From an uncultured Porphyromonadaceae bacterium (GTDB lineage Bacteria; Bacteroidota; Bacteroidia; Bacteroidales; Muribaculaceae), in assembly GCA_947177185.1 (NCBI GenBank), contig CAMWTJ010000004.1, positions 32,175 to 96,174 on the forward strand: DNA of 64,000 nucleotides, given 5' to 3'. A program made the position numbers and the translations under genes. The notes under the pieces were generated by a model. It made no database searches. It was not told the DNA's origin and was given only the letters and a program-made list of their open reading frames with translations. Positions 2,462 to 13,812 of the stretch are shown here, in pieces. How positions within the stretch are numbered: the first letter of the stretch is position 1; each line of letters starts with the position of its first letter.

Positions 2462-3131
2462 TCGGGAGGCTAAAGCGCCGCCTGGCGCAGAATGTCTGCC
2501 GCCACCTGCGTGCCGCACGCCTCGAGGCGCTCCTTGAGGCGGCGCCGGCGGCTGTACATGGTGTTTTGCTTCATGCCGGTGAGGCGGCATATGGTGCCGG
2601 TGTCCATGCGCGCCAGCAGCAGCGCCGCCAGTGTGAAATCGTCGTCACGTATCGCGCCGTCGCTCTGCGCCGCAGCTATGATGCCGCCGAATGTCGAGTC
2701 TATCTCCTTCACCAGCTGCTCCAGTTGCTCCGGCTGCGCCATGCGCTCGAGTTCCGACTCTATTTGCCTCAGCACCCTGCGGCGGCTGCTGTCGGAGTCT
2801 TCGAGGCCGCGCAGCTGCTTGTTGAGCATGTTGAGCGTGGCCCATTGCCTTCGGTATATCAGCTTCAGTCGGTCGTGCATATCGGCGTTCTGCTCCTGTC
2901 CGGCGCACACATCGCTCTGCAGCAGCAGAATCTCGCCCATCTGAGCCTCTATGCGCATGTCCTTCAGGCGCATGCGCATGCGGTGGTAGTACGTGCCGCC
3001 CGCTATGGCCAGTGCCGCCGCCACCATGCCGGCCGTGAGCCATATGCGCAGCCACATGGCCCGCTCCTTCTCCTGCGCGGCTATTTTGTCGTAGTAGTTG
3101 CGCTGCTCCACCACTATCGACTGATTCAATT
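2455..3131. repeat. Direct repeat copy 1 (about 677 bp), pairs with 4166-4843
   Basis: By eye, identical to 4166-4843 apart from a 1-nt indel and two substitutions near the left end; the ORF track shows near-identical shadow ORFs at 2492/4204 and 2645/4357. Confidence 0.95.
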
Positions 3132-4104
3132 TCTGCTCGAGCAGCTCGTTTTGCTGCTCTATCAGTTTGGCCTTGTATGCGAGGGCTTCCTTGTAGTTTT
3201 GCTGCTGTGAGTAAAGATAGGAGTAGGCGTTGTATATAGCGGCTTTTTCTTCGATAGTCGTGGCATACTTGTCGGCAAATTCGAGATGCGCGGCAGCGTT
3301 TTCATAATCTCCGGCCCATGTTTCAACAGTGGCCATATAAGCCACCTCTTGCGTATATTCCGGGTTCATGTAGCCGATCATCTGCGGAATCATAGTCTGT
3401 GCTTCGGCGTATTTATCGTGCTTTACAAGATAGGAAAAATACGCGGTGGTGGCATAATAAAGCAACATGGAGTCCTGCGGCGGCTGCGATGCGAGATGGA
3501 TTACGCTGTCGAATAATGCGTCGCCTTTGTCGCACCCTTCTATATTGCCATAGGTTATTGCGAGCTCGCAGAGCGCGAAGCGATGGTTCCGCTCTTTTCC
3601 GGCTTTTTTGTAATACTCGACCGTTTTGCGGGTGTAATCCAAGGCTTCTTTCAGCATATAGGAAAAGAACATTATATCGGATATAGCTTCAGTAGATTTT
3701 GCCATCCAATAATAGTCCTGCTTCGATTCTGCCATTGAATAGGCCTCCATTAAAGGAATTATGGCATCGTCGTACCGCTTGCAGTTTGTTTCCACGACGC
3801 CTTTGTAGAAAAGCGCCTTCATAAGCCTTTCCTTATCGCCGTTTCTGCGAAATGCTTGCACCGAGCGCTCTATCAGAGAGTCCGACAATTCTATATGGTG
3901 CGTTTTGGTCCGGGCTTGCACATACAGCAATCCATATAGTGGCGAGCTCTTGTGCTCTTGCTCAACACCGTTTACTATGGCCAATGCCGAGTCCGGGTAT
4001 TCCTCAATAATCCGTTCCGCTTCCAGTAACTGCGGGTCGTAATGATTTTTGCATGCAGATAATAATACCAACAGAGAACTGGCAAATACTATTAAATGTT
4101 TCAT
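2470..4104 (-). CDS. Lipoprotein-TPR-TM-HTH one-component sensor/regulator, paralog 1
   Basis: Lipobox LLSAC, helical TPR-like middle, TM (WLRIWLTAGMVAAALAIAGGTYY), C-terminal LuxR-like HTH (DFTLAALLLARMDTGTICRLTGMKQNTMYSRRRRLKERL). Confidence 0.75.
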   Translation of the reverse strand: MKHLIVFASSLLVLLSACKNHYDPQLLEAERIIEEYPDSALAIVNGVEQEHKSSPLYGLLYVQARTKTHHIELSDSLIERSVQAFRRNGDKERLMKALFYKGVVETNCKRYDDAIIPLMEAYSMAESKQDYYWMAKSTEAISDIMFFSYMLKEALDYTRKTVEYYKKAGKERNHRFALCELAITYGNIEGCDKGDALFDSVIHLASQPPQDSMLLYYATTAYFSYLVKHDKYAEAQTMIPQMIGYMNPEYTQEVAYMATVETWAGDYENAAAHLEFADKYATTIEEKAAIYNAYSYLYSQQQNYKEALAYKAKLIEQQNELLEQKLNQSIVVEQRNYYDKIAAQEKERAMWLRIWLTAGMVAAALAIAGGTYYHRMRMRLKDMRIEAQMGEILLLQSDVCAGQEQNADMHDRLKLIYRRQWATLNMLNKQLRGLEDSDSSRRRVLRQIESELERMAQPEQLEQLVKEIDSTFGGIIAAAQSDGAIRDDDFTLAALLLARMDTGTICRLTGMKQNTMYSRRRRLKERLEACGTQVAADILRQAAL

Positions 4105-4141
4105 AATACTAAAGCATAAACTTACTGCAAAGATATGAAAA
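4036..4141. repeat. Direct repeat copy 1 (106 bp: promoter, UTR and signal peptide), pairs with 5757-5862
   Basis: Four mismatches by eye; each copy contains a minus-strand TATCTTTG -7 box (4128-4135 and 5849-5856). Confidence 0.9.
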
Positions 4142-4165
4142 TCCCAAGCGTACCATCACTCTGGT

Positions 4166-4843
4166 CATTTAATCGGGGAGGCTAAAGCGCCGCCTGGCGC
4201 AGAATGTCTGCCGCTACCTGCGAGCCGCACGCCTCGAGGCGCTCCTTGAGGCGGCGCCGGCGGCTGTACATGGTGTTTTGCTTCATGCCGGTGAGGCGGC
4301 ATATGGTGCCGGTGTCCATGCGCGCCAGCAGCAGCGCCGCCAGTGTGAAATCGTCGTCACGTATCGCGCCGTCGCTCTGCGCCGCAGCTATGATGCCGCC
4401 GAATGTCGAGTCTATCTCCTTCACCAGCTGCTCCAGTTGCTCCGGCTGCGCCATGCGCTCGAGTTCCGACTCTATTTGCCTCAGCACCCTGCGGCGGCTG
4501 CTGTCGGAGTCTTCGAGGCCGCGCAGCTGCTTGTTGAGCATGTTGAGCGTGGCCCATTGCCTTCGGTATATCAGCTTCAGTCGGTCGTGCATATCGGCGT
4601 TCTGCTCCTGTCCGGCGCACACATCGCTCTGCAGCAGCAGAATCTCGCCCATCTGAGCCTCTATGCGCATGTCCTTCAGGCGCATGCGCATGCGGTGGTA
4701 GTACGTGCCGCCCGCTATGGCCAGTGCCGCCGCCACCATGCCGGCCGTGAGCCATATGCGCAGCCACATGGCCCGCTCCTTCTCCTGCGCGGCTATTTTG
4801 TCGTAGTAGTTGCGCTGCTCCACCACTATCGACTGATTCAATT
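4166..4843. repeat. Direct repeat copy 2 (about 678 bp)
   Basis: See 2455-3131; encodes the shared TM and HTH C-terminus. Confidence 0.95.
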
Positions 4844-5825
4844 GTTTTTCAAGTTCTTTGTTCTGCCCTTTAATTACAAGCCTGTTGTATCGCGCAACTT
4901 TGGGGTAGTCTTTAAGCAGTTCGTAAATAAATGAATAAGCATTGTATATGTTGACACTGTCAATAACATCAGTAGCATAAGATTCGGCATCCTTCATTTG
5001 CGAAAATGCCTCGTTATAATTTCCTAAATGTGCATCTAACTCGGCACTGCATACAATATTGTAGGTCAGTGGATATTTTTTGTTGAATTCTTTCATGAGT
5101 GCATGATACCGTAGGGCATCACTGTATTCTTTATACTCAACATGGTCTACAAACCTTGGAGCTGTGCAATAGTATAATAAGCCCGAATCAGCGGGGCTAA
5201 CGGTAGAAATAACGCTATCAATAAGAGTTGCGAACGATTTACGGTCTTTCAAATGAAGGTGCTCAACGGCTATATCGCACAATATATATTTATGATTAAG
5301 TTCTATTCCTGCATCCTTAAAACCTTTTGCAGCAATTGTCCAATACTTTAAGGCATCTTTAAATAAATGGCAATTTCTGAATAAATCGCCCAATAACATC
5401 GCTATCCGTGCTTTCCAGATTGTATTGTCCTTGCTTTCCGCTATTTCAAAACTTTGTGTGGCAGGAATAATCGCCTTATCATACTCTTGTTTATAGAATA
5501 GGAGTGTCGCGTAATAATACAAAGACTTCATCAGCCGCTCCTGGTCGTTATCCGTTTTAAAATGGTCCATAGACTCAAGAAGCATGGATGCAGTAGTGTC
5601 TATATAATTATTCTTGTGCCGGGCCTGTGTGTATAACAAGAAATATAGTGCGCGGTCTGACTTAAGCGCAAAGTCGGCGTCGTCGATTGTTTCAATTATT
5701 GAAAGGGCCGAATCAGGATGTTCTTCCATGATATTCTCAGCATGGAGAAGTCGGGTGTCGTAATGATTTTTGCATGCAGGTAATAATACCAACAGAGAAA
5801 TGGCAAATACTATTAAATGTTTCAT
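4182..5825 (-). CDS. Lipoprotein-TPR-TM-HTH one-component sensor/regulator, paralog 2
   Basis: Same architecture as 2470-4104 (signal ends LLPAC), near-identical C-terminal ~220 aa, divergent TPR-like middle. Confidence 0.75.
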   Translation of the reverse strand: MKHLIVFAISLLVLLPACKNHYDTRLLHAENIMEEHPDSALSIIETIDDADFALKSDRALYFLLYTQARHKNNYIDTTASMLLESMDHFKTDNDQERLMKSLYYYATLLFYKQEYDKAIIPATQSFEIAESKDNTIWKARIAMLLGDLFRNCHLFKDALKYWTIAAKGFKDAGIELNHKYILCDIAVEHLHLKDRKSFATLIDSVISTVSPADSGLLYYCTAPRFVDHVEYKEYSDALRYHALMKEFNKKYPLTYNIVCSAELDAHLGNYNEAFSQMKDAESYATDVIDSVNIYNAYSFIYELLKDYPKVARYNRLVIKGQNKELEKQLNQSIVVEQRNYYDKIAAQEKERAMWLRIWLTAGMVAAALAIAGGTYYHRMRMRLKDMRIEAQMGEILLLQSDVCAGQEQNADMHDRLKLIYRRQWATLNMLNKQLRGLEDSDSSRRRVLRQIESELERMAQPEQLEQLVKEIDSTFGGIIAAAQSDGAIRDDDFTLAALLLARMDTGTICRLTGMKQNTMYSRRRRLKERLEACGSQVAADILRQAAL

Positions 5826-6056: not shown

Positions 6057-6088
6057 TTTGGATACATATTATGTGACGCTTAATTTTG
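6057..6088 (+). promoter_or_regulatory. Sigma-A promoter of the DUF3244-rSAM-precursor operon
   Basis: TTTG (6057-6060), 20-nt spacer, TAATTTTG (6081-6088): full Bacteroidetes consensus. Confidence 0.75.
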
Positions 6089-6103
6089 CAAAAAACTAAC
6101 GTG

Positions 6104-6487
6104 ATGAAAATTCAGAGTAAAATAGTCTGCTTGCTGTCTATTATAATGACACTTTATGCAGCACCAATCAGCCAAGCGATGGATGTACGAGATACGTCAA
6201 CTATAATCACGTTGAAATTGAGAGGAGGGCGCCCTGATTTACCGAAGATGCCGTCGCGTCAGCGCATCACGTGTGTTTATGAGGACGGAACTCTGTATCT
6301 TGAATTCAAATATAGCGAAGGCGAGGCGGTGCTTTCCGTCACAGACCTTTGCCATGGAGGCTGCACTGAGCACGTTTTCTCTACAGATGCCCCCGCACTT
6401 ATATATATTGGCGCTGTTGAAGCGGCGACCATTGAGATTTATACAGAAAGCGGCAGCGAATACGTGGCCGAAATTATGGATTACTGA
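6104..6487 (+). CDS. DUF3244-like secreted small protein
   Basis: Signal peptide MKIQSKIVCLLSIIMTLYAAPISQA; pattern P-x-MPSRQRITCVYEDGTLYLEF...IEIYTESGSEY resembles DUF3244; divergent from TPR regulators, as that family usually is. ATG at 6104 preferred over TTG at 6086. Confidence 0.6.
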   Translation: MKIQSKIVCLLSIIMTLYAAPISQAMDVRDTSTIITLKLRGGRPDLPKMPSRQRITCVYEDGTLYLEFKYSEGEAVLSVTDLCHGGCTEHVFSTDAPALIYIGAVEAATIEIYTESGSEYVAEIMDY

Positions 6488-6499
6488 CAAAAGAGCACC

Positions 6500-7789
6500 A
6501 TGAAGCAGAGCATTTTCAATACGTGCATACAGCTTGACAATGGGTTTACCATTGTCTACAATGCGTTTTCCGACAAATATGTGGTGTGCGGTTCGGAGGC
6601 AATCTCAATCGACGGCCACCAAATACACAACTGTTCAGAATTGGTTCGCGCCCGCCTTGAAGAGATTGGTGCGTATGTGCCCGATGATGTCGACGAACAG
6701 CGCATGCTTGAAGAGCGCATAGAGCGCGTCGACAACGACTCTGCATGTTTTGAACTGCATGTGAATCCTACGCTTAACTGCAATTTTCGTTGTTGGTATT
6801 GCTACGAAGAGCACTTGCCGGGTTCAAAAATGGACGCCGCAACCATTGAGGCGCTGTGCAGGCTGATATCTCTGAAGCTCGACGAAACAGAAGGCTTGGA
6901 ATCGTTTAATCTGTCTTTTTTCGGTGGCGAGCCTCTGCTGTACTATTCCGAAACTGCTTTGCCGGTGATAAGACACGCCGTGAAAGCCTGTGCCGGCAGG
7001 GGTGTGCACCTATGGCTGCATTTCACTACTAATGCCTATCTGCTTTCGGAGCAAATTCTTGAAAGCATAGGCGACGTCGACGCCAGTTTTCAGATTACAC
7101 TCGACGGTGCCAGAGAGCAACACGATAAAGTGCGTTTTCAGGCCGGTGGCAAAGGCAGTTACGATGCGATTCTCTCAAATGCACGCAGAGCTGCATCTTA
7201 TGGCAAGCATATCATATTGCGAATCAATTACACTGCCGACAGCATCGCCACGGTGGGCTCCATTGCCGATGAACTACGTGAATTCGGCAGTGAGAAACGC
7301 AATATCACAATTGATCTGCAGCGAGTATGGCAGGACAATGGATGTGCGGCGGACGAAGAACGCGTGCAGGACGACGTGGACAGGCTGTACAGACTGTTTC
7401 GCAGCGAAGGATTCATGTGCAGCACGCCGTACATACGCAATTCTGTGCTGGATTCGTGCTATGGCGACAAGCGCAATTCGATATTGATAAATTACAACGG
7501 CGATGCCTTTTTCTGCACGGCGCGTGATTTTAAGAGCGCCGACCGTGCGGGATTCCTTGCATCGGACGGCAGAATAGTGTGGGAAAACAACGCTCTCGAG
7601 CGCAGGATGGCCGCAAAGTATAAAAGTGCCGCATGCAGGCAGTGCCGCATAGCTCCGATTTGTGGCGGCGGATGCCGGCAGCGCGCGGTGGAAATGGCCG
7701 GTTCGGACGATTGCCTTGTCGGCTTCTCAGACCGGGAACGCACGGAACGGGTGGTCCGGCGCTTCGAACAGATGCATATACCCGCATGA
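6500..7789 (+). CDS. Radical SAM/SPASM-domain peptide maturase
   Basis: CNFRCWYC (CxxxCxxC), FFGGEPLL, QITLDG; SPASM cysteines SCYGD...GDAFFC and CRQCRIAPICGGGC...DDC. Confidence 0.9.
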   Translation: MKQSIFNTCIQLDNGFTIVYNAFSDKYVVCGSEAISIDGHQIHNCSELVRARLEEIGAYVPDDVDEQRMLEERIERVDNDSACFELHVNPTLNCNFRCWYCYEEHLPGSKMDAATIEALCRLISLKLDETEGLESFNLSFFGGEPLLYYSETALPVIRHAVKACAGRGVHLWLHFTTNAYLLSEQILESIGDVDASFQITLDGAREQHDKVRFQAGGKGSYDAILSNARRAASYGKHIILRINYTADSIATVGSIADELREFGSEKRNITIDLQRVWQDNGCAADEERVQDDVDRLYRLFRSEGFMCSTPYIRNSVLDSCYGDKRNSILINYNGDAFFCTARDFKSADRAGFLASDGRIVWENNALERRMAAKYKSAACRQCRIAPICGGGCRQRAVEMAGSDDCLVGFSDRERTERVVRRFEQMHIPA

Positions 7790-7854
7790 TGCTTGCATAT
7801 GGAGCAGCCGGAAAATCCATAAAAGAGTACGGACAAATATCTAAACCAAAACAA

Positions 7855-8118
7855 ATGAAACTAACAAAGATTGAGCAGTTCGTCAGCACACTTGTTGACC
7901 CTGCAATGCCCGCCGACCAGCAGGCGCTTGTTCTTGGCGCCGATTTGGCATTACTGGGAGGCGACAACACCCAGACATGCATTAATCATACTGCAGCGGC
8001 ATGCGGCTCGGAAAATAGGGGATGCACAAACTATGGTGAAGCATGCAGCGAGGGTAGTAATTACAAGTGTACAAATAAAATTCAGCTCAACAACAGCTTA
8101 ACGAGGCCGTGCCAATAG
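7855..8118 (+). CDS. Double-glycine RiPP precursor peptide (87 aa; 36-aa leader, 51-aa six-Cys core)
   Basis: ATG at 7855 after an A-rich TIR (ctaaaccaaaacaa), in the frame of ORF 7633-8118. Leader ends ALLGG; core DNTQTCINHTAAACGSENRGCTNYGEACSEGSNYKCTNKIQLNNSLTRPCQ. Lies directly after the rSAM gene and upstream of a C39 exporter. Confidence 0.85.
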   Translation: MKLTKIEQFVSTLVDPAMPADQQALVLGADLALLGGDNTQTCINHTAAACGSENRGCTNYGEACSEGSNYKCTNKIQLNNSLTRPCQ

Positions 8119-8256
8119 TGCACGTGTATTTGTACATGTAGACTGAGATGGCAGAGCTCTGTGCCGCGAAAAGTGATATAATTATATATGATTAAGGCTT
8201 ACGCAGTTATGATGCTTGCCGATACCTGTCAGACCAAGAACGTGACAATTTGTTGA

Positions 8257-8306: not shown

Positions 8307-8349
8307 CAGTGAAATATAGTTCGTGAACGTTGCATTAATAGTGAATTCT

Positions 8350-10668
8350 ATGGTGAAAGCTATCATTTTGACAGTCGGTCTGGCGCTTGCGCCGGGGGCT
8401 GTGGCCTTCGGGCAGCAAAGCGCATTGCGCTTCGGGGTATATGATGCCGACGGCGAGCCCGCGGCGGGAGCAGTGGCCACACTGCTCAGCCGCAGCGACT
8501 CAACCATCATCGACGCGGCCATAGCCACGGCAGAGGGTCAGGTGGTGTTTCCGGCCGACAGCCTTGCGTGGCGCATGGTCGATATCTCTTATCCGGGCTA
8601 TGTGTCGGTGCGCATCGGCGCTTCCGAGGTGCCGGATTCGGTGCGTCTGGCGGTGTCGGCCACCGAGCTGCAAGAGCTTGTGGTGCAGGGACAGACGCTG
8701 CAGCGCGCGACCGGACGCTTTATCTACGACCCCGGCAGCCTGCGCCGGGAGCTGCCCAACGTTTACGAGATACTGCGCTTCACACCCATGGTGCACTTCC
8801 AGGACGGTGTGGCCTCTATCATATCAAAAGGCACAGCAAAGATATACATCAACGGCCGCGACCCGAAAATGCCGCAGGCAGCCCTTGCCGAATATCTCCG
8901 CTCCATTCCGGCTCAGGAAATCAAACGCATAGAAATAGTGACCAATCCGGGCAGCACTCAGCGCGCAGGCGACGCATCCGGCATTGTGAACATTGTAATA
9001 GAAAAGCCCGACGACGGCCTGCTGGGCAGCGCCTCTGCCTCCACAGGCTATGACGACCGCTTTGTCAGAGCGAGGTCAAGCGTGTGGCTCGGCTACAAGC
9101 GCGGAAAATTTTCGGCTTCGGGATCCATCGCTTATCAGCGCTGGGGCAACCGTAGCAAAACCGAGTCGGACTATCGCTATGCGGTGCCCGAAGAGAAATC
9201 GGTGAGCAACACCACCACAGCCTATTCAGCCATCGACGTGCTGGGCGGCAGTGCCGTGGCCGAGTACGCGTTTACGCCGAGCAGCACACTGGGCGCCTCA
9301 TTAAATGTATTCGGCGTATCGGTGGGCGAACACTCCGAAGTGCATACCGTGACTTCCACTCCTGCCGCTACGGCGGAGCTGTCGGCGATGCATGTGAACA
9401 CGCGCACTCCGTGGGTGCGCCCGGAGATAGGCGCGGTGCTTTATTATACCTTGCGCACCGACGAGCTCGGCAGCACTCTGGATGTGACGGCCGACTATTC
9501 CCTGCGGAAGACGGTTACCAACACCGACTACAGCAGCGACGGCAGCCACACGTGGCAGAACACGGCTGTCAGCGGCCACGGATTCAGCTTCACACCTAAA
9601 TACAAATGGATATTGAGCAACGCCCACCGGCTGGATGCTGGCTACGACTTTGTGACCGCCTACATGGACAATAAAAGCGATTTTGCAGGACAGAAAGACG
9701 ATTTTACCTACGATGAAACGGTGCAAAGCGCTTTTGTGCAGTGGAAATCGAAATGGAGCGATGTGTTTTCCGCAGAGGTGGGCATACGCGTCGAAAATTC
9801 ACGGATCAAGGGAGTGTCGCCGGATGCATCGGAGTCGTTCTCGCGCACTTACACCGATTGGTTTCCCTCGCTCAGCCTCAACTTTGACCTGCCGCACTCG
9901 CAGAACCTGTCGCTGGAATTCCAGCGCCGGATTGTTCGCCCGTTCTACAGCACTCTGAACCCGTTTGTGCGCTGGACCTCGTCCACCACATGCACTGCCG
10001 GCAACCCCGACCTGAGGCCGGATTACCCTTGGGACGTTACGCTGTATTATTCTTTCTTGAACGGATTTGTGCTGTCGGCCCACTATACTTACGAATCCGA
10101 AAGTCTGGGCGACTATACTTTCGGCCGCGGGGGCATCACCGTTACGGGCTGGGACAATTTCGGACGAGTACATAGTTTTGTACCATCGCTGTCCTATGCC
10201 AAAACGGTCGGAATCTGGACCGTGAGAGCCTCAACGAATGGAAGCTATAGATATGAGGAAGCAACACTGGACGGCGCCGATATGGGCTATAGTCATTGGA
10301 CTTGGGGGCTGAGTTTTATCAATCACTTTGCTATCTCCAAAAAACACAATTTCGGAGCGGAAATGTTCTATATTGCCATGTCGCCGTGGCAAGCCCTGGG
10401 CCGCCAGAGCAAATGGAAAAATCTGCTCGACGTAAGCCTGAGAAAGGGCTTCAACTCGGGATGGTACGTGTCGCTTAATGTGAGCAACATACTTAATTTC
10501 AGCAACGTGTACCATTACAATTCGCCCGATTACAGCTACGACAACCGCTCGCTGTACAATGGCGTGGGCTTCTCCCTGTCCGTCAGCTACACTTTCGGCA
10601 AGTATCAGGTGAATGCCGCGGAGGGAAAAGGCAGCGACAAAATGTCGGGACGCTACAGCAGTTTCTGA
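8350..10668 (+). CDS. TonB-dependent-receptor-like outer-membrane beta-barrel protein
   Basis: Signal peptide from ATG 8350, carboxypeptidase-regulatory-like N-domain, LQELVVQG, plug motif LRSIPAQEIKRIEIVTNPG...GIVNIV, barrel with IVRPFYSTLNPF and terminal strand FSLSVSYTFG. Confidence 0.8.
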   Translation: MVKAIILTVGLALAPGAVAFGQQSALRFGVYDADGEPAAGAVATLLSRSDSTIIDAAIATAEGQVVFPADSLAWRMVDISYPGYVSVRIGASEVPDSVRLAVSATELQELVVQGQTLQRATGRFIYDPGSLRRELPNVYEILRFTPMVHFQDGVASIISKGTAKIYINGRDPKMPQAALAEYLRSIPAQEIKRIEIVTNPGSTQRAGDASGIVNIVIEKPDDGLLGSASASTGYDDRFVRARSSVWLGYKRGKFSASGSIAYQRWGNRSKTESDYRYAVPEEKSVSNTTTAYSAIDVLGGSAVAEYAFTPSSTLGASLNVFGVSVGEHSEVHTVTSTPAATAELSAMHVNTRTPWVRPEIGAVLYYTLRTDELGSTLDVTADYSLRKTVTNTDYSSDGSHTWQNTAVSGHGFSFTPKYKWILSNAHRLDAGYDFVTAYMDNKSDFAGQKDDFTYDETVQSAFVQWKSKWSDVFSAEVGIRVENSRIKGVSPDASESFSRTYTDWFPSLSLNFDLPHSQNLSLEFQRRIVRPFYSTLNPFVRWTSSTTCTAGNPDLRPDYPWDVTLYYSFLNGFVLSAHYTYESESLGDYTFGRGGITVTGWDNFGRVHSFVPSLSYAKTVGIWTVRASTNGSYRYEEATLDGADMGYSHWTWGLSFINHFAISKKHNFGAEMFYIAMSPWQALGRQSKWKNLLDVSLRKGFNSGWYVSLNVSNILNFSNVYHYNSPDYSYDNRSLYNGVGFSLSVSYTFGKYQVNAAEGKGSDKMSGRYSSF

Positions 10669-10684
10669 TTCATCAGCCGCCACA

Positions 10685-12862
10685 GTGAAATTCAGGCGCA
10701 TATTCTCGTATCAGCAGACCGAACGCTCCGATTGCGGCATGGCATGCATACGCATCGTATGCCGCTATCACGGCCTGTGTGTGCCCATGAGCTACCTGAG
10801 GCATCATGTGGAAACCGGCCGCCTCGGAATCTCGGTGCGCGACATCGTCGCGGCTCTCGGCGGGCTGGGCATGCACAGCATGGCGGTGCGGGTGGGCGTA
10901 GACGACCTGCGCACCATGCCTTTGCCGGCCATATTGTATTGGAACAGGCAGCATTTTGTGGTGCTGTATAAGGCGGATGTCGACAAGGGAGTGTTTAGTG
11001 TGGTCGACCCCTCCGAAGGCAAAATGAAATACCGTACCGACGATTTCAGCGAGTATTTCGTGGCCAACGACGGAAAAGGCATAGCAGTGCTGGCGGAGCC
11101 CGACGAAACGTTCGAGAGCCGTCAGAAGGACATGCCGCCCGACGAGCGCCGCCTGCCGCATCTTGCCGCCCGCATAGTGCGCGAACACTCCGGGCCGTTT
11201 GCGGCGGTGTGCGCGTTCATGCTGCTGGCCATGGGAGCCGACGTGGCGTTGCCGTTCGTGTTTCAACGCACCATAGACGAGGGCATACACAGCGGCGACA
11301 TTCAGCTCATATGGCTGCTGGTTTTCTCGCAGCTGTTTATCTTCTTTGGAAACTACCTGTCCAACTGTGTGGTGGAGTATCTGCTCACGAAGATAGGCCT
11401 GCGCATGAGCATACGCATGATAAACGATTATCTCAAGAAGATCATTTGCCTGCCTATGAGCTTTTTCGCGACCAAGGTAAGCTCCGACCTTATCCAGAAA
11501 GTCGACGACCACAACCGCATACAGAACTTCATGGTGTCGCTGCCCGACACGCTGGTGTTCACGGTGATAAATGTCGTGCTGTTTTCCGGCATATTGATTT
11601 ATTTCAGCCGCACGGTGTTTCTGATATTCATAGTGTGCACGCTGCTGAGCGTGGTGTGGACGGCGCTGTTCATGCGCAGACGCCGCGAGGTGGACTATGC
11701 GTATTTTTCGAAATTGTCGGAAAACCGCAACAATCTGTACGAACTCGTCAACGGCATCGACGAGATAAAGGCCAACTGCGCGCAGCATCAGCGTCTGTCC
11801 ACATGGGACAAGGTGCAGTCGAGAATCAACGACCTGTCGCTCCGCAAGGCTATGCTCAAGATGTATCAGAATGGCGGCAATGTGTTTTTCGTGCGCTTCC
11901 GCGATATTGCCATCACGGGCATTTGTGCCACCCTTGTGGTCAGGGGCGAAATGTCCATAGGCCTGATGATGACACTCAGCTACATTGTCGGGCGGCTTTC
12001 CGCACCGTTTGCCAACCTGATAAACTCGGTCAATATGTTCCAGGACGTGAGCATGTCGTACGACCGCATTGAGGAGGTGATGAACGCCGACCTTGCCGAC
12101 GGACGCGTGCTGCCCGCGCCGCAGTTCGACTCGGTGGAGTTCCGCGACGTGCGTTTCCGCTACCCGGGAGCCGGCACGCCGTTTGTGCTCCACGGCATTG
12201 ACCTGACGATACCCCGCGGACGCACCACCGCTATCGTGGGGCCCAGCGGATGCGGGAAGTCGACGGTGCTGAAGATTCTTCTCGGCTTTTTCAACCCCAC
12301 GTCGGGTGAGGTGCTGGTGGAGGGCGTCAGGCTCGACAGCATATGCGAGGAATCGTGGCTCTCGAAAATGGCGGTGGTGATGCAAAACGGCAACCTGTTT
12401 TCTGGAGATATACTCACCAATATCGCGCTGTCCGACGCCGAGCCGGACCTCGGTCGTGCGCGCAGGGCTGCCGAAATAGCCTGTATCGATGAGTTCATTG
12501 ACAGCCTGCCCATGGGCTTCAGCACCCCGGTAGGGAAAATCGGCATGGAAATAAGCGGAGGGCAGAAGCAGCGTCTGCTCATTGCGCGGGCCATATACCG
12601 CTGCCCGGAAATTATAGTGCTCGACGAGGCCACGTCGTCGCTCGATGCCATTACCGAACGCAGGGTAATAGAAAACATAATGGCTGAATTCCGAAACCGC
12701 ACGGTAGTGATAGTGGCGCACAGACTGAGCTCCGTCAAAAACGCCGACAACATCATAGTGATGGACAGCGGGCGCATAGAGGAGCAGGGCACGCATGCGC
12801 AGCTGCTGTGCGGCGGCGGCCGCTACTACAGCCTGGTGGAGCACCAGATGGAATTCGCTTGA
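10685..12862 (+). CDS. Peptidase-containing ABC transporter (C39 + TMD + NBD)
   Basis: C39 residues QQTERSDCG, LYWNRQHFVVLY and VVDP; Walker A GPSGCGKST, signature ISGGQKQR, Walker B IIVLDEAT. GTG at 10685 is the likely start. Confidence 0.92.
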   Translation: MKFRRIFSYQQTERSDCGMACIRIVCRYHGLCVPMSYLRHHVETGRLGISVRDIVAALGGLGMHSMAVRVGVDDLRTMPLPAILYWNRQHFVVLYKADVDKGVFSVVDPSEGKMKYRTDDFSEYFVANDGKGIAVLAEPDETFESRQKDMPPDERRLPHLAARIVREHSGPFAAVCAFMLLAMGADVALPFVFQRTIDEGIHSGDIQLIWLLVFSQLFIFFGNYLSNCVVEYLLTKIGLRMSIRMINDYLKKIICLPMSFFATKVSSDLIQKVDDHNRIQNFMVSLPDTLVFTVINVVLFSGILIYFSRTVFLIFIVCTLLSVVWTALFMRRRREVDYAYFSKLSENRNNLYELVNGIDEIKANCAQHQRLSTWDKVQSRINDLSLRKAMLKMYQNGGNVFFVRFRDIAITGICATLVVRGEMSIGLMMTLSYIVGRLSAPFANLINSVNMFQDVSMSYDRIEEVMNADLADGRVLPAPQFDSVEFRDVRFRYPGAGTPFVLHGIDLTIPRGRTTAIVGPSGCGKSTVLKILLGFFNPTSGEVLVEGVRLDSICEESWLSKMAVVMQNGNLFSGDILTNIALSDAEPDLGRARRAAEIACIDEFIDSLPMGFSTPVGKIGMEISGGQKQRLLIARAIYRCPEIIVLDEATSSLDAITERRVIENIMAEFRNRTVVIVAHRLSSVKNADNIIVMDSGRIEEQGTHAQLLCGGGRYYSLVEHQMEFA

Positions 12863-12975: not shown

Positions 12976-13812
12976 ATGAAGATTATTGCCGACAGCAGCA
13001 CTACGCGCACGGAATGGGTATTGGTCGACGGCCGCGAGGTCGTCGAGCGGGCGTTTACTTCCGGTATGAATCCGTACTTTCAGACGCGTCGCGAAATATC
13101 CCACTGTATCCGTCTGGAGCTACCCGACAGCTTCTTCCGCCGCCGCTGGGAGCATGTGTATTTTTATGGCGCGGGATGCGGAACCTCGGAAAAAAACAAG
13201 GTGATGAGCTCGTCGCTCATTGCGCAGTTCAAGACTCCTGTCACGGTGGAGAGCGATATGCTCGGCGCCGCCCGCGGGCTGCTCGTGCGCGAGCCGGGCA
13301 TTGCTTGCATCCTCGGCACGGGCTCTAACTCGTGTCAGTACGACGGCCGCGAGATTGTGCGCAACGTGCGTGCCCTCGGATTCATACTCGGCGACGAAGG
13401 CTCGAACGCCTATCTTGGAAAAATGTTCATAGCCGACGCCATAAAGGATATCGCGCCGTCCGACCTTTCGGCGGCTTTTTTCGAGCACTTTGCCGTTACG
13501 CCCAACTCGCTTATCGACGAGCTGTTCAGTTCGTCGATGCCTTCGCGTGCGCTGGCCCGCTACTCGCGCTTTCTGTCGGAGCATATCGACAATCCGTATG
13601 TGTATCAGCTCATATATGCGGCCTTCATGCGCTTCTTCACCCGCAATGTGGCGGCCTACGATTTCCGCAAGCTGCCGCTCTGCTTTGTGGGCTCCACGTG
13701 CGTGATGTACAGGGAGATACTCGAGCGTGCTGCCACGGATTTCGGAGTGAGCATAGCCAAGGCCGTGCGCAGCTCCATGCCGGGACTGGTGGAGTATCAC
13801 GCCGGCGAGTAG
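12976..13812 (+). CDS. BadF/BadG/BcrA/BcrD-type ATPase, probable N-acetylglucosamine kinase
   Basis: MKIIADSSTTRTEW, VYFYGAGC, ESDMLGAARGL, ACILGTGSNSC and LGFILGDEGS. Confidence 0.8.
   Translation: MKIIADSSTTRTEWVLVDGREVVERAFTSGMNPYFQTRREISHCIRLELPDSFFRRRWEHVYFYGAGCGTSEKNKVMSSSLIAQFKTPVTVESDMLGAARGLLVREPGIACILGTGSNSCQYDGREIVRNVRALGFILGDEGSNAYLGKMFIADAIKDIAPSDLSAAFFEHFAVTPNSLIDELFSSSMPSRALARYSRFLSEHIDNPYVYQLIYAAFMRFFTRNVAAYDFRKLPLCFVGSTCVMYREILERAATDFGVSIAKAVRSSMPGLVEYHAGE

What the first reader, a model, noticed from the sequence alone, without database searches (positions are those of the whole stretch)
7855..8118. Hidden 87-aa precursor with a 15-residue period and NxxC-x-N motifs
The ORF track buries this inside a 161-aa ORF. 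The leader ends in LLGG. In core numbering, Cys lies at 6, 14, 21, 28, 36 and 50. C6, C21 and C36 are exactly 15 apart and each is followed by x-N (CIN, CTN, CTN). N18-R-G-C21 and N33-Y-K-C36 are NxxC motifs. Established: streptococcal NxxcB makes a Cys-S to Asn-C-beta thioether at an NxxC motif. Inference: a multiply crosslinked ranthipeptide-like product (2 Da lost per link). An alternative is a disulfide/Asn-ladder mini-solenoid.
Basis: partly seen in the sequence, partly recalled or inferred. Interest (0 to 1): 0.8.

Follow-up and report, generated by a model that had tools for sequence, protein, structure and literature searches.

The report
Cys/Asn-rich RiPP precursor beside radical-SAM maturase
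A small unannotated gene in a gut Bacteroidales genome encodes the precursor of a secreted peptide that a neighbouring radical-SAM enzyme most likely staples into rings through cysteine-asparagine links; it belongs to a sizeable peptide family that carries no family annotation in the libraries searched.

Summary
Window 7855-8118(+) is an 87-aa ORF with a 36-aa leader ending LLGG and a 51-aa core. The core has Cys at 6/14/21/28/36/50 and three C-x-N motifs 15 residues apart.

It is a real gene. More than 150 distinct homologues (225 clusters at 50% identity) share five Cys and five Asn at near-100% conservation. Strain variants carry 11 non-synonymous and 0 synonymous core changes, none at a Cys or a conserved Asn, and only synonymous leader changes.

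It lies in a conserved cassette: radical-SAM/SPASM maturase (6500-7789), precursor, TonB-dependent-receptor-like barrel (8323-10668) and C39-peptidase ABC exporter (10613-12862).

The best characterised relatives of the maturase are thioether-forming enzymes (PapB, QhpD, CteB). It fails the cut-off of every curated family, and the peptide matches no Pfam or NCBIfam model.

A multiply thioether-crosslinked, ranthipeptide-like product is therefore the best reading, but the chemistry is inferred. Strict NxxC is a minority spacing; the family rule is N-x(2-3)-C-x-N.

AlphaFold gives no fold (pLDDT 44.6), so the mini-solenoid alternative gains no support.

Verdict: a new, uncharacterised family within a known kind of system, and a good experimental lead.

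The parts
7855..7962 (+). Leader peptide (36 aa, MKLTKIEQFV...LALLGG) of the precursor. It has a double-glycine-type end for C39 cleavage.
   Evidence: Translation. Homologue N-termini and the leader motif K/R-I/V-E-x-F ... V-I/L-L align from this ATG. G[GAS] lies within 25 aa before C1 in 141/156 homologues. Strain variants show only synonymous leader changes.
7963..8118 (+). Core peptide (51 aa plus stop): three modules N-x(2-3)-C-x-N-x(4-5)-C. Cys at core 6/14/21/28/36/50; conserved Asn at 2/8/18/23/33/38.
   Evidence: Strain variant X3 has 11 non-synonymous and 0 synonymous codon changes in the core, none at a Cys or conserved Asn, and the frame stays open.
6500..7789 (+). Radical SAM/SPASM peptide maturase (429 aa). 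It has C94-x3-C98-x2-C101 and seven SPASM Cys (C320, C339, C379, C382, C388, C392, C405).
   Evidence: Pfam Radical_SAM at 5.9e-13. NCBIfam best hits are TIGR04463 (141 bits), CefB (139.5) and PapB (109.8), all below their cut-offs. The Cys are invariant in 15 homologues. The profile hits CteB 5wgg at 5e-29.
8323..10668 (+). Outer-membrane beta-barrel, TonB-dependent-receptor-like, a conserved cassette member. The likely true start is the ATG at 8350.
   Evidence: Pfam OMP_b-brl_3 at 8e-56 and a weak Plug hit. Homologues in related clusters carry CarboxypepD_reg, TonB_dep_Rec_b-barrel and OMP_b-brl_3. Synteny is shown.
10613..12862 (+). Peptidase-containing ABC transporter (PCAT): C39 peptidase with catalytic-Cys motif SDCGMAC, then ABC membrane and ATPase domains. 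Predicted leader removal and export.
   Evidence: Pfam Peptidase_C39 at 2e-26, ABC_membrane at 5e-28 and ABC_tran at 1e-29. Translation. Synteny.
6086..6487 (+). Small protein with a hydrophobic, signal-peptide-like N-terminus (likely start ATG 6104), directly upstream of the maturase. Role unknown; it may belong to the cassette.
   Evidence: Translation. No Pfam or NCBIfam hit. A weakly similar 140-aa ORF occupies the same position in L001 (E 0.01).
2470..5825 (-). Two tandem TPR-containing paralogues (2470-4104 and 4182-5825), divergently oriented to the cassette. Possible regulators or sensors; the association is tentative.
   Evidence: Weak TPR_12 and BT3442-family hits. The pair is 62% identical overall, with a near-identical C-terminal ~230 aa. 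A homologue lies beside the rSAM in L024.

Best explanation
Window 7855-8118 encodes the precursor of a ribosomally synthesised, post-translationally modified peptide (RiPP).

The proposed pathway:
1. The 36-aa leader docks the peptide on the adjacent radical SAM/SPASM maturase (6500-7789).
2. The maturase uses 5'-deoxyadenosyl radical chemistry and its auxiliary Fe-S clusters to join Cys thiols of the 51-aa core to carbon atoms of the conserved Asn residues. These are ranthipeptide-type thioethers, each costing 2 Da.
3. The favoured topology has each Cys linked to the conserved Asn lying N-terminal to it: N2-C6, N8-C14, N18-C21, N23-C28 and N33-C36. That gives five tandem rings, with an optional sixth link involving C50.
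4. The C39-peptidase ABC transporter (10613-12862) then cuts after LLGG and exports the product.
5. The conserved TonB-dependent-receptor-like barrel (8323-10668) handles outer-membrane passage or re-uptake.

Shown here: the ORF, its family-wide conservation, selection on the frame, the synteny, and the enzyme's class.

Inferred: that the links are thioethers, that Asn is the acceptor and at which carbon, the ring topology, and the biological activity (bacteriocin or signal).
For: Real coding gene:
- There are 30 called homologues, further uncalled ones beside rSAM homologues and 225 clusters at 50% identity.
- The invariant columns are all Cys or Asn.
- In 156 cores chosen on Cys spacing alone, Asn at +2 of C1 and C3 is 100%, and Asn at -3/-4 of C3 and C5 is 100% and 98%.
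- Strain variants have a synonymous-only leader and a hypervariable core with Cys and Asn fixed.

Cassette: the order pep-rSAM-OMP-PCAT recurs in L001-L007, L011, L012 and L129-L131. The PCAT has an intact C39 catalytic motif.

Enzyme class:
- CX3CX2C plus a seven-Cys SPASM domain are invariant.
- The best characterised relatives are PapB (full-length match, 110 bits), QhpD and CteB (5wgg, 5e-29). All of these form Cys thioethers to side-chain carbons (PMC9413430, PMC9389541).
- Precedent for Asn as acceptor: NxxcB links Cys-S to Asn C-beta (PMC9389541).

Topology:
- The five invariant Cys and the five most conserved Asn pair up exactly under the 'Asn upstream of Cys' rule.
- The two least conserved elements are the Asn at +2 of C5 (87%) and C6 (69%).
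- NxxC is enriched in unrelated precursors beside related rSAMs: 200 observed against 78.8 +/- 7.6 in shuffles.
Against: - No expression or product data exist. No RNA run was found, and translation from 7855 is inferred from comparison only.
- The maturase is below the cut-off of every curated family (141 vs 525; 139.5 vs 600; 110 vs 340), so its chemistry cannot be transferred by membership.
- The strongest motif is Asn at +2 of Cys (z = 18 within the family). That would equally fit a Cys-to-downstream-Asn link with PapB polarity, or a pure recognition role.
- The Asn at +2 of C5 is kept whether or not C6 exists (91/44/16/5), so a proposed N38-C50 link has no co-occurrence support.
- The conservation statistics come from sequences retrieved with a profile that rewards those same columns.
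- No RRE domain was detectable by Pfam.
Confidence: 0.6

Rival explanations
1. The same RiPP system, but with PapB polarity. Each Cys is linked to the next Asn on its C-terminal side: C6-N8, C14-N18, C21-N23, C28-N33 and C36-N38. Small C-x-N rings would alternate with C-x(3-4)-N rings, and C50 would stay free or form something else.
For: Asn at +2 of Cys is the single most enriched and invariant feature. PapB, the closest characterised full-length NCBIfam match, links Cys to a downstream acidic residue and tolerates 0-6 spacers (PMC9413430). The Asn at +2 of C5 is retained in 44 of 49 cores that lack C6.
Against: This scheme leaves the 94-99% conserved Asn before C1 without a role. It also gives C5 no partner in the 13% of family members that lack Asn at +2. 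Across the wider clade, NxxC is more enriched than CxN.
Confidence: 0.2
2. A sactipeptide-type or other rSAM product. The maturase would make S-C-alpha (sactionine) bonds, or a non-thioether change such as a C-C crosslink or epimerisation. The Cys would then form disulfides or bind metal, and the conserved Asn would serve recognition or turn formation.
For: SPASM enzymes with similar scores include sactisynthases, cyclophane formers and others: SkfB, SuiB, DynA, YhhB and FxsB. Family membership is not met for any thioether family.
Against: The highest-scoring characterised matches are non-alpha thioether formers. The core has few aromatic residues, which cyclophane chemistry needs. One-to-one conservation of five Cys with five Asn suggests donor-acceptor pairs.
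Confidence: 0.12
3. An unmodified, disulfide-bonded mini-protein (Asn-ladder solenoid or class II bacteriocin) that is merely exported by the PCAT. The rSAM would act on something else.
For: There are six Cys, an even number. A GG-leader with a PCAT also serves unmodified bacteroidetocins (PMC10352776).
Against: AlphaFold2 finds no fold: mean pLDDT 44.6 and pTM 0.17. 31% of family members have only five Cys. The rSAM is the constant neighbour of family peptides across loci.
Confidence: 0.05
4. Not a gene: a chance ORF in the spacer between the rSAM and OMP genes.
For: The 87-aa product as such was not listed as a called protein of the window. There is no expression data.
Against: Hundreds of homologues exist with conserved leader and Cys/Asn columns. 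The frame is open in all strain variants, and leader changes are synonymous only.
Confidence: 0.02

Closest known systems
NxxcA/NxxcB (streptococcal RaS-RiPP, NxxC subfamily)
   Same: An rSAM enzyme links a Cys thiol to the beta-carbon of an Asn lying N-terminal to it (PMC9389541). The window core has NxxC at C21 and C36, and every family member has Asn 3-4 residues before C3 and C5.
   Different: NxxcB is a Gram-positive enzyme. Here there are three repeated modules with 5-6 Cys, an invariant C-x-N, mostly NxxxC spacing, a Bacteroidales GG-leader/PCAT/OMP context, and no neighbour matching a named regulator family. Sequence relatedness to NxxcB was not tested because its sequence was not on hand.
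PapA/PapB (freyrasin ranthipeptide)
   Same: Multiple (six) in-line thioether rings are made by one rSAM/SPASM enzyme on a repeat-like core (PMC9413430). PapB is the best characterised full-length NCBIfam match to the window maturase: 109.8 bits, model positions 10-325 of 330.
   Different: PapB's acceptor is Asp in CX3D with Cys upstream. The score is far below the family cut-off (340). The window enzyme has an extra ~90-aa N-terminal region.
CteA/CteB (thermocellin) and SCIFF peptides
   Same: CteB (5wgg) is the closest solved structure: 2e-14 with the single sequence and 5e-29 with the profile. The window core also has six Cys within 45 residues.
   Different: CteB links Cys to Thr C-gamma. 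The SCIFF maturase model scores 67.5 against a cut-off of 425, and the peptide hits no NCBIfam model.
NCBIfam TIGR04463 and CefB 'Cys-every-fifth' maturases (computational families; I found no paper on the latter)
   Same: These are the top two HMM matches across the whole enzyme. More distant rSAM homologues in my loci sit beside C-x-N-x-x repeat peptides.
   Different: Scores are 141 and 139.5 bits against cut-offs of 525 and 600. The window's Cys spacing is 8/7/7/8/14, not 5.
Bacteroidales rSAM + PCAT + GG-precursor gene clusters found by genome mining (PMC10352776)
   Same: The architecture is the same: rSAM, GG-motif precursor, PCAT, OMP and sometimes TPR genes. They are reported as prevalent in human gut metagenomes and are chemically uncharacterised.
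   Different: In the passages I read, that study does not describe this peptide family or its Cys/Asn motif. Its figures, which hold the precursor sequences, were not available to me.

Membership tests
RiPP precursor with double-glycine leader | N-terminal leader ending in G-G/A/S, with a cognate C39-peptidase transporter nearby | tested here: met
   The leader ends LLGG. G[GAS] lies before C1 in 141/156 homologues. The PCAT has a Peptidase_C39 hit at 2e-26 and the SDCGMAC motif.
Radical SAM/SPASM peptide maturase | A CX3CX2C cluster motif plus a C-terminal seven-Cys SPASM motif | tested here: met
   C94/C98/C101 and C320, G334-x4-C339, C379-x2-C382-x5-C388-x3-C392 and C405 are invariant in 15 homologues. 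Pfam Radical_SAM is above its gathering score.
Radical SAM/SPASM peptide maturase | An N-terminal RiPP recognition element (PqqD-like) | tested here: inconclusive
   About 90 residues precede the rSAM core. Pfam finds no PqqD-like or other RRE-type family match there, even at E <= 1. The 8vpo alignment starts at residue 4. No structure was predicted.
Ranthipeptide | A maturase related to known ranthisynthases | tested here: inconclusive
   The best characterised hits are PapB, QhpD and CteB, but all fall below their family cut-offs.
Ranthipeptide | A thioether between Cys sulfur and a non-alpha carbon of the acceptor residue | not testable with these tools
   This needs MS and NMR of the modified peptide.
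NxxC subfamily (NxxcA/NxxcB) | A conserved N-x-x-C motif in the core | tested here: not met
   The window has NxxC twice. Family-wide, however, Asn at -3 is the minority (C3 68/156, C5 35/156), and the rule is N-x(2-3)-C.
NxxC subfamily (NxxcA/NxxcB) | A maturase orthologous to NxxcB | not tested
CefA/CefB Cys-every-fifth system (NF038107) | Maturase above the curated cut-off, and a precursor with Cys at every fifth residue | tested here: not met
   139.5 bits against a cut-off of 600. The Cys spacing is 8/7/7/8/14.
TIGR04463 rSAM/SPASM RiPP maturase | A score above the curated cut-off | tested here: not met
   141.1 bits against a cut-off of 525.
SCIFF (six Cys in forty-five) / TIGR03974 maturase | The peptide matches the SCIFF model, and the maturase is above cut-off | tested here: not met
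   The peptide hits no NCBIfam family. The maturase scores 67.5 against 425.

The most novel reading that the evidence does not exclude
The product may not be a simple bacteriocin. It could be a secreted thioether peptide that the producer, or its kin, takes up or senses again. The evidence is contextual. A TonB-dependent-receptor-like barrel, which is an importer-type protein rather than TolC-like, is a constant member of the cassette. Two membrane-anchored TPR paralogues with diverged outer halves and identical inner halves sit next to it. That would make this a peptide signalling system, or a Cys/Asn-based metallophore system, in Gram-negative gut Bacteroidales. Its chemistry would be new: five or six Cys-Asn thioethers in a three-fold module.
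Probability: 0.15. Interest if true: 0.8.

Novelty: new variant of a known kind. Interest (0 to 1): 0.55.

Why it matters
No Bacteroidales rSAM RiPP chemistry was described in the literature I could search, although such clusters are reported as common in human gut metagenomes (PMC10352776).

This finding defines a concrete peptide family: at least 225 clusters at 50% identity, with no Pfam or NCBIfam model and no name. It has a sharply conserved five-Cys/five-Asn skeleton and a fixed four-gene cassette.

The family gives a directly testable hypothesis: the number and polarity of Cys-Asn thioethers. It would also extend Asn-acceptor thioether chemistry from a single streptococcal NxxC ring to a multi-ring scaffold in Gram-negative commensals.

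The hypervariable core between fixed crosslink residues suggests diversifying selection. That pattern is typical of molecules used in inter-strain competition or recognition.

Tried and rejected
- A word-indexed protein search with the single peptide found only one hit, P0001. The family appeared only after I collected uncalled ORFs beside rSAM homologues and searched with a profile.
With the single peptide it found nothing. The scan with the rSAM worked.
- An exact look-up of the window rSAM found no record.
- RNA evidence: no RNA-labelled run holds the locus, only contigs of DNA or unknown kind. Transcription and translation therefore remain untested.
- AlphaFold2 of the peptide gave no confident fold, so no fold search was run.
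- The terminator-like hairpin at 8108-8124 is no more stable than shuffled sequence (z = -0.26) and was dropped.
- Pfam at E <= 1 found no RRE in the rSAM N-terminus, no convincing HTH in the TPR proteins (HTH_36 at E 0.083) and nothing for the 133-aa protein.
- Considered and rejected: SCIFF, CefA/B and TIGR04463 membership; an N-glycosylation sequon (only N8-H-T fits); and a YcaO-type heterocycle (none of the genes examined between 1 and 19863 matched YcaO).
- Literature searches found no paper on 'Cys-every-fifth' or on this motif.

Full report
**1. The observation**

Translating window 7855-8118(+) gives an 87-aa product: MKLTKIEQFVSTLVDPAMPADQQALVLGADLALLGG followed by DNTQTCINHTAAACGSENRGCTNYGEACSEGSNYKCTNKIQLNNSLTRPCQ.
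- The leader ends LLGG.
- The core Cys are at 6, 14, 21, 28, 36 and 50.
- C6, C21 and C36 are 15 apart and read CIN, CTN and CTN.
- N18-R-G-C21 and N33-Y-K-C36 are NxxC.

The mechanical ORF list shows only the 161-aa ORF 7633-8118, whose first 52 codons overlap the upstream gene in another frame. One metagenome gene call, P0001, starts at the ATG at 7786. Homologue N-termini align with the ATG at 7855.

**2. The surroundings**

- Immediately upstream, 6500-7789(+) encodes a 429-aa radical SAM enzyme with CNFRCWYC and a C-terminal CRQCRIAPICGGGC block.
- Downstream, 8323-10668 encodes an OMP_b-brl_3 barrel (8e-56) with weak Plug and TonB-receptor hits.
- Next, 10613-12862 encodes a C39-peptidase ABC transporter with an intact SDCGMAC motif.
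- After that comes an unrelated 278-aa ORF with no family match (12976-13812).
- Upstream lie a small ORF with a signal-peptide-like N-terminus (6086-6487) and two divergently oriented TPR paralogues.

**3. Is it a gene?**

A scan of species-representative genomes with the rSAM protein gave 47 loci. All but one are titled Bacteroidota; the exception is a 2.3-kb contig labelled Lactococcus. The best match is 52% identical, from a Muribaculaceae genome.

Small ORFs with GG-type leaders and Cys-rich tails flank most of these rSAM genes. An iterative profile search over their six-frame ORFs recovered clear homologues of the window peptide in L001-L006, L012 and L035.

Alignments of 10 and of 26 sequences, at 20-40% identity to the window, have invariant columns that are exclusively Cys or Asn: core C6, N8, C14, C21, N23, C28, C36 and N38. 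N33 reaches at least 90%.

A profile search of the 5.8-billion-protein collection returned 30 proteins, none with a name or a Pfam domain. An exhaustive HMMER search of 1.84 billion representatives returned 225 clusters at E <= 1e-3.

I then selected cores with a regular expression on Cys spacing only, so no Asn was required. This gave 156 unique cores.

| Feature | Count out of 156 |
|---|---|
| Asn at +2 of C1 | 156 |
| Asn at +2 of C3 | 156 |
| Asn at +2 of C5 | 135 |
| Asn at -3/-4 of C1 | 147 |
| Asn at -3/-4 of C3 | 156 |
| Asn at -3/-4 of C5 | 153 |
| Sixth Cys present | 107 |
| C1-C3 spacing of 15 (range 13-17) | 83 |
| C3-C5 spacing of 16 | 96 |
| C3-C5 spacing of 15 | 51 |

One caveat applies. 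The sequences were retrieved with a profile that rewards these same columns, so the percentages are upper bounds.

**4. Selection within the species**

Contigs from four public gut-metagenome runs cover the locus at 95-99% identity without indels. I applied their differences to the window sequence.
- Run X3 has 11 changed codons. All are non-synonymous, all are in the core, and none touches a Cys or one of the six Asn.
- Run X2 has two synonymous leader changes and four non-synonymous changes in the C-terminal tail.
- Run X1 has one core change.
- The frame stays open in all three.

A conserved leader with a hypervariable core around fixed crosslink residues is the usual signature of a RiPP precursor.

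**5. The cassette**

The order peptide(s)-rSAM-OMP-PCAT recurs in L001-L007, L011 and L012. It also recurs around the most widespread family member, P0014, where the order is pep-rSAM-OMP-pep-PCAT. There the OMP carries CarboxypepD_reg, TonB_dep_Rec_b-barrel and OMP_b-brl_3 domains.

In most relatives the precursor lies upstream of the rSAM. In the window it lies downstream.

**6. The enzyme**

Fifteen homologues share invariant C94/C98/C101 and seven SPASM Cys, including G334-x4-C339 and C379-x2-C382-x5-C388-x3-C392.

The best NCBIfam matches all fall below their curated cut-offs.

| NCBIfam family | Score (bits) | Cut-off (bits) |
|---|---|---|
| TIGR04463 | 141 | 525 |
| CefB 'Cys-every-fifth' | 139.5 | 600 |
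| Geopeptide maturase | 123.4 | 400 |
| Clo7bot maturase | 117.4 | 600 |
| PapB | 109.8 | 340 |
| QhpD | 96.4 | 453 |

Against solved structures, the single sequence hits CteB (5wgg) at 2e-14. The family profile hits CteB at 5e-29, then 8vpo (full length), ChlB, anSME, SuiB and SkfB.

The characterised relatives at the top of both lists, PapB, QhpD and CteB, all make thioethers from Cys to side-chain carbons. PapB makes six Cys-Asp C-beta links in CX3D motifs and tolerates 0-6 spacer residues (PMC9413430). NxxcB makes a Cys-Asn C-beta link and also accepts Ala, Gln or Asp as acceptor (PMC9389541).

No RRE-type family match (PqqD-like) was found by Pfam in the first 91 residues.

**7. Mechanism**

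The best-supported reading has four steps: leader-guided modification by the rSAM/SPASM enzyme, formation of several Cys-Asn thioethers, C39 cleavage after LLGG, and export. The chemistry is inference.

Two ring polarities fit the data.

*Upstream rule* (Asn N-terminal to its Cys, as in NxxcB). This pairs the five invariant Cys with the five most conserved Asn: N2-C6, N8-C14, N18-C21, N23-C28 and N33-C36. It leaves the least conserved pair, N38 (87%) and C50 (69%), as an optional sixth link. NxxC is also strongly enriched in unrelated precursors beside related rSAMs, at 200 observed against 78.8 +/- 7.6 in shuffles. CxN is less enriched there, at 122 against 80 +/- 8.

*Downstream rule* (PapB polarity). 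This is favoured by the absolute invariance of C-x-N (z = 18). It is also favoured by N38 being retained regardless of whether C6 exists (91/44/16/5). However, it leaves the Asn before C1 unexplained.

I favour the upstream rule modestly.

Asn at -4 outnumbers Asn at -3 by 93 to 68 at C3 and by 123 to 35 at C5.

**8. Alternatives**

AlphaFold2 with a 24-sequence alignment gives mean pLDDT 44.6 and pTM 0.17. Only a weak leader helix is predicted, so an autonomous disulfide/Asn-ladder fold gains no support. In addition, 31% of family members have an odd number of Cys (five).

Sactionine or non-thioether chemistry cannot be excluded, because the enzyme belongs to no curated family.

**9. What is known**

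Genome mining has reported that rSAM + PCAT + GG-precursor clusters, some with OMP or TPR genes, are common in Bacteroidales and prevalent in human gut metagenomes. Their chemistry has not been characterised (PMC10352776).

I found no paper on this peptide family, on 'Cys-every-fifth' systems, or on Cys-Asn thioethers in Bacteroidota within the searchable library.

**10. Verdict**

This is a new, unnamed peptide and maturase family within a known kind of system. It is a solid lead for experiment, not a categorical surprise. Interest 0.55.

Noticed in passing
window 2470-4104(-) and 4182-5825(-): These are tandem paralogues of 544 and 547 aa with a lipoprotein-like signal (..LSAC) and weak TPR hits. 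Their N-terminal ~320 aa are only ~45% identical, while the C-terminal ~230 aa are ~99-100% identical. That C-terminal part includes a hydrophobic TM-like stretch and an HTH-looking end. The pattern suggests recent gene conversion with diverged sensor halves. They may be regulators or sensors of the neighbouring peptide cassette, and a homologue lies beside the rSAM in L024.
   Followed up: partly
window 8323-10668; L129-L131: The conserved outer-membrane partner of the cassette is TonB-dependent-receptor-like: OMP_b-brl_3, with CarboxypepD_reg and TonB_dep_Rec_b-barrel in homologues. It is not TolC-like. Some related clusters carry two copies. This hints at uptake or sensing of the peptide rather than, or in addition to, export.
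   Followed up: partly
window 6086-6487(+): A 133-aa ORF (likely start ATG 6104) with a signal-peptide-like N-terminus and no family match lies directly upstream of the rSAM gene. A weakly similar 140-aa ORF occupies the same position in L001 (E 0.01). It could be an accessory or immunity protein.
   Followed up: partly
L007-L047 and L053-L127 (loci of more distant rSAM homologues): Other Bacteroidota rSAM homologues sit next to quite different GG-leader Cys-rich precursors. Examples are C-x-N-x-x repeats, CxC/NCDC repeats and C-x3-C Gln-rich repeats, often in several tandem copies. This looks like a large radiation of uncharacterised precursor types sharing enrichment of Asn three residues before Cys.
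   Followed up: partly
L003 512-802; L005 3662-3901; P0027-P0030: Several family members look truncated or frameshifted: the leader is intact but the core is lost, or the leader start is lost. They could be decaying extra precursor copies or assembly errors.
   Followed up: no
L023: A 2.3-kb contig labelled Lactococcus garvieae carries an rSAM and precursor of the Bacteroidota type. It is probably a binning or contamination artefact.
   Followed up: no
window 10613-10668: The predicted PCAT start overlaps the end of the OMP gene by 56 nt. This suggests either translational coupling or a later true start.
   Followed up: no
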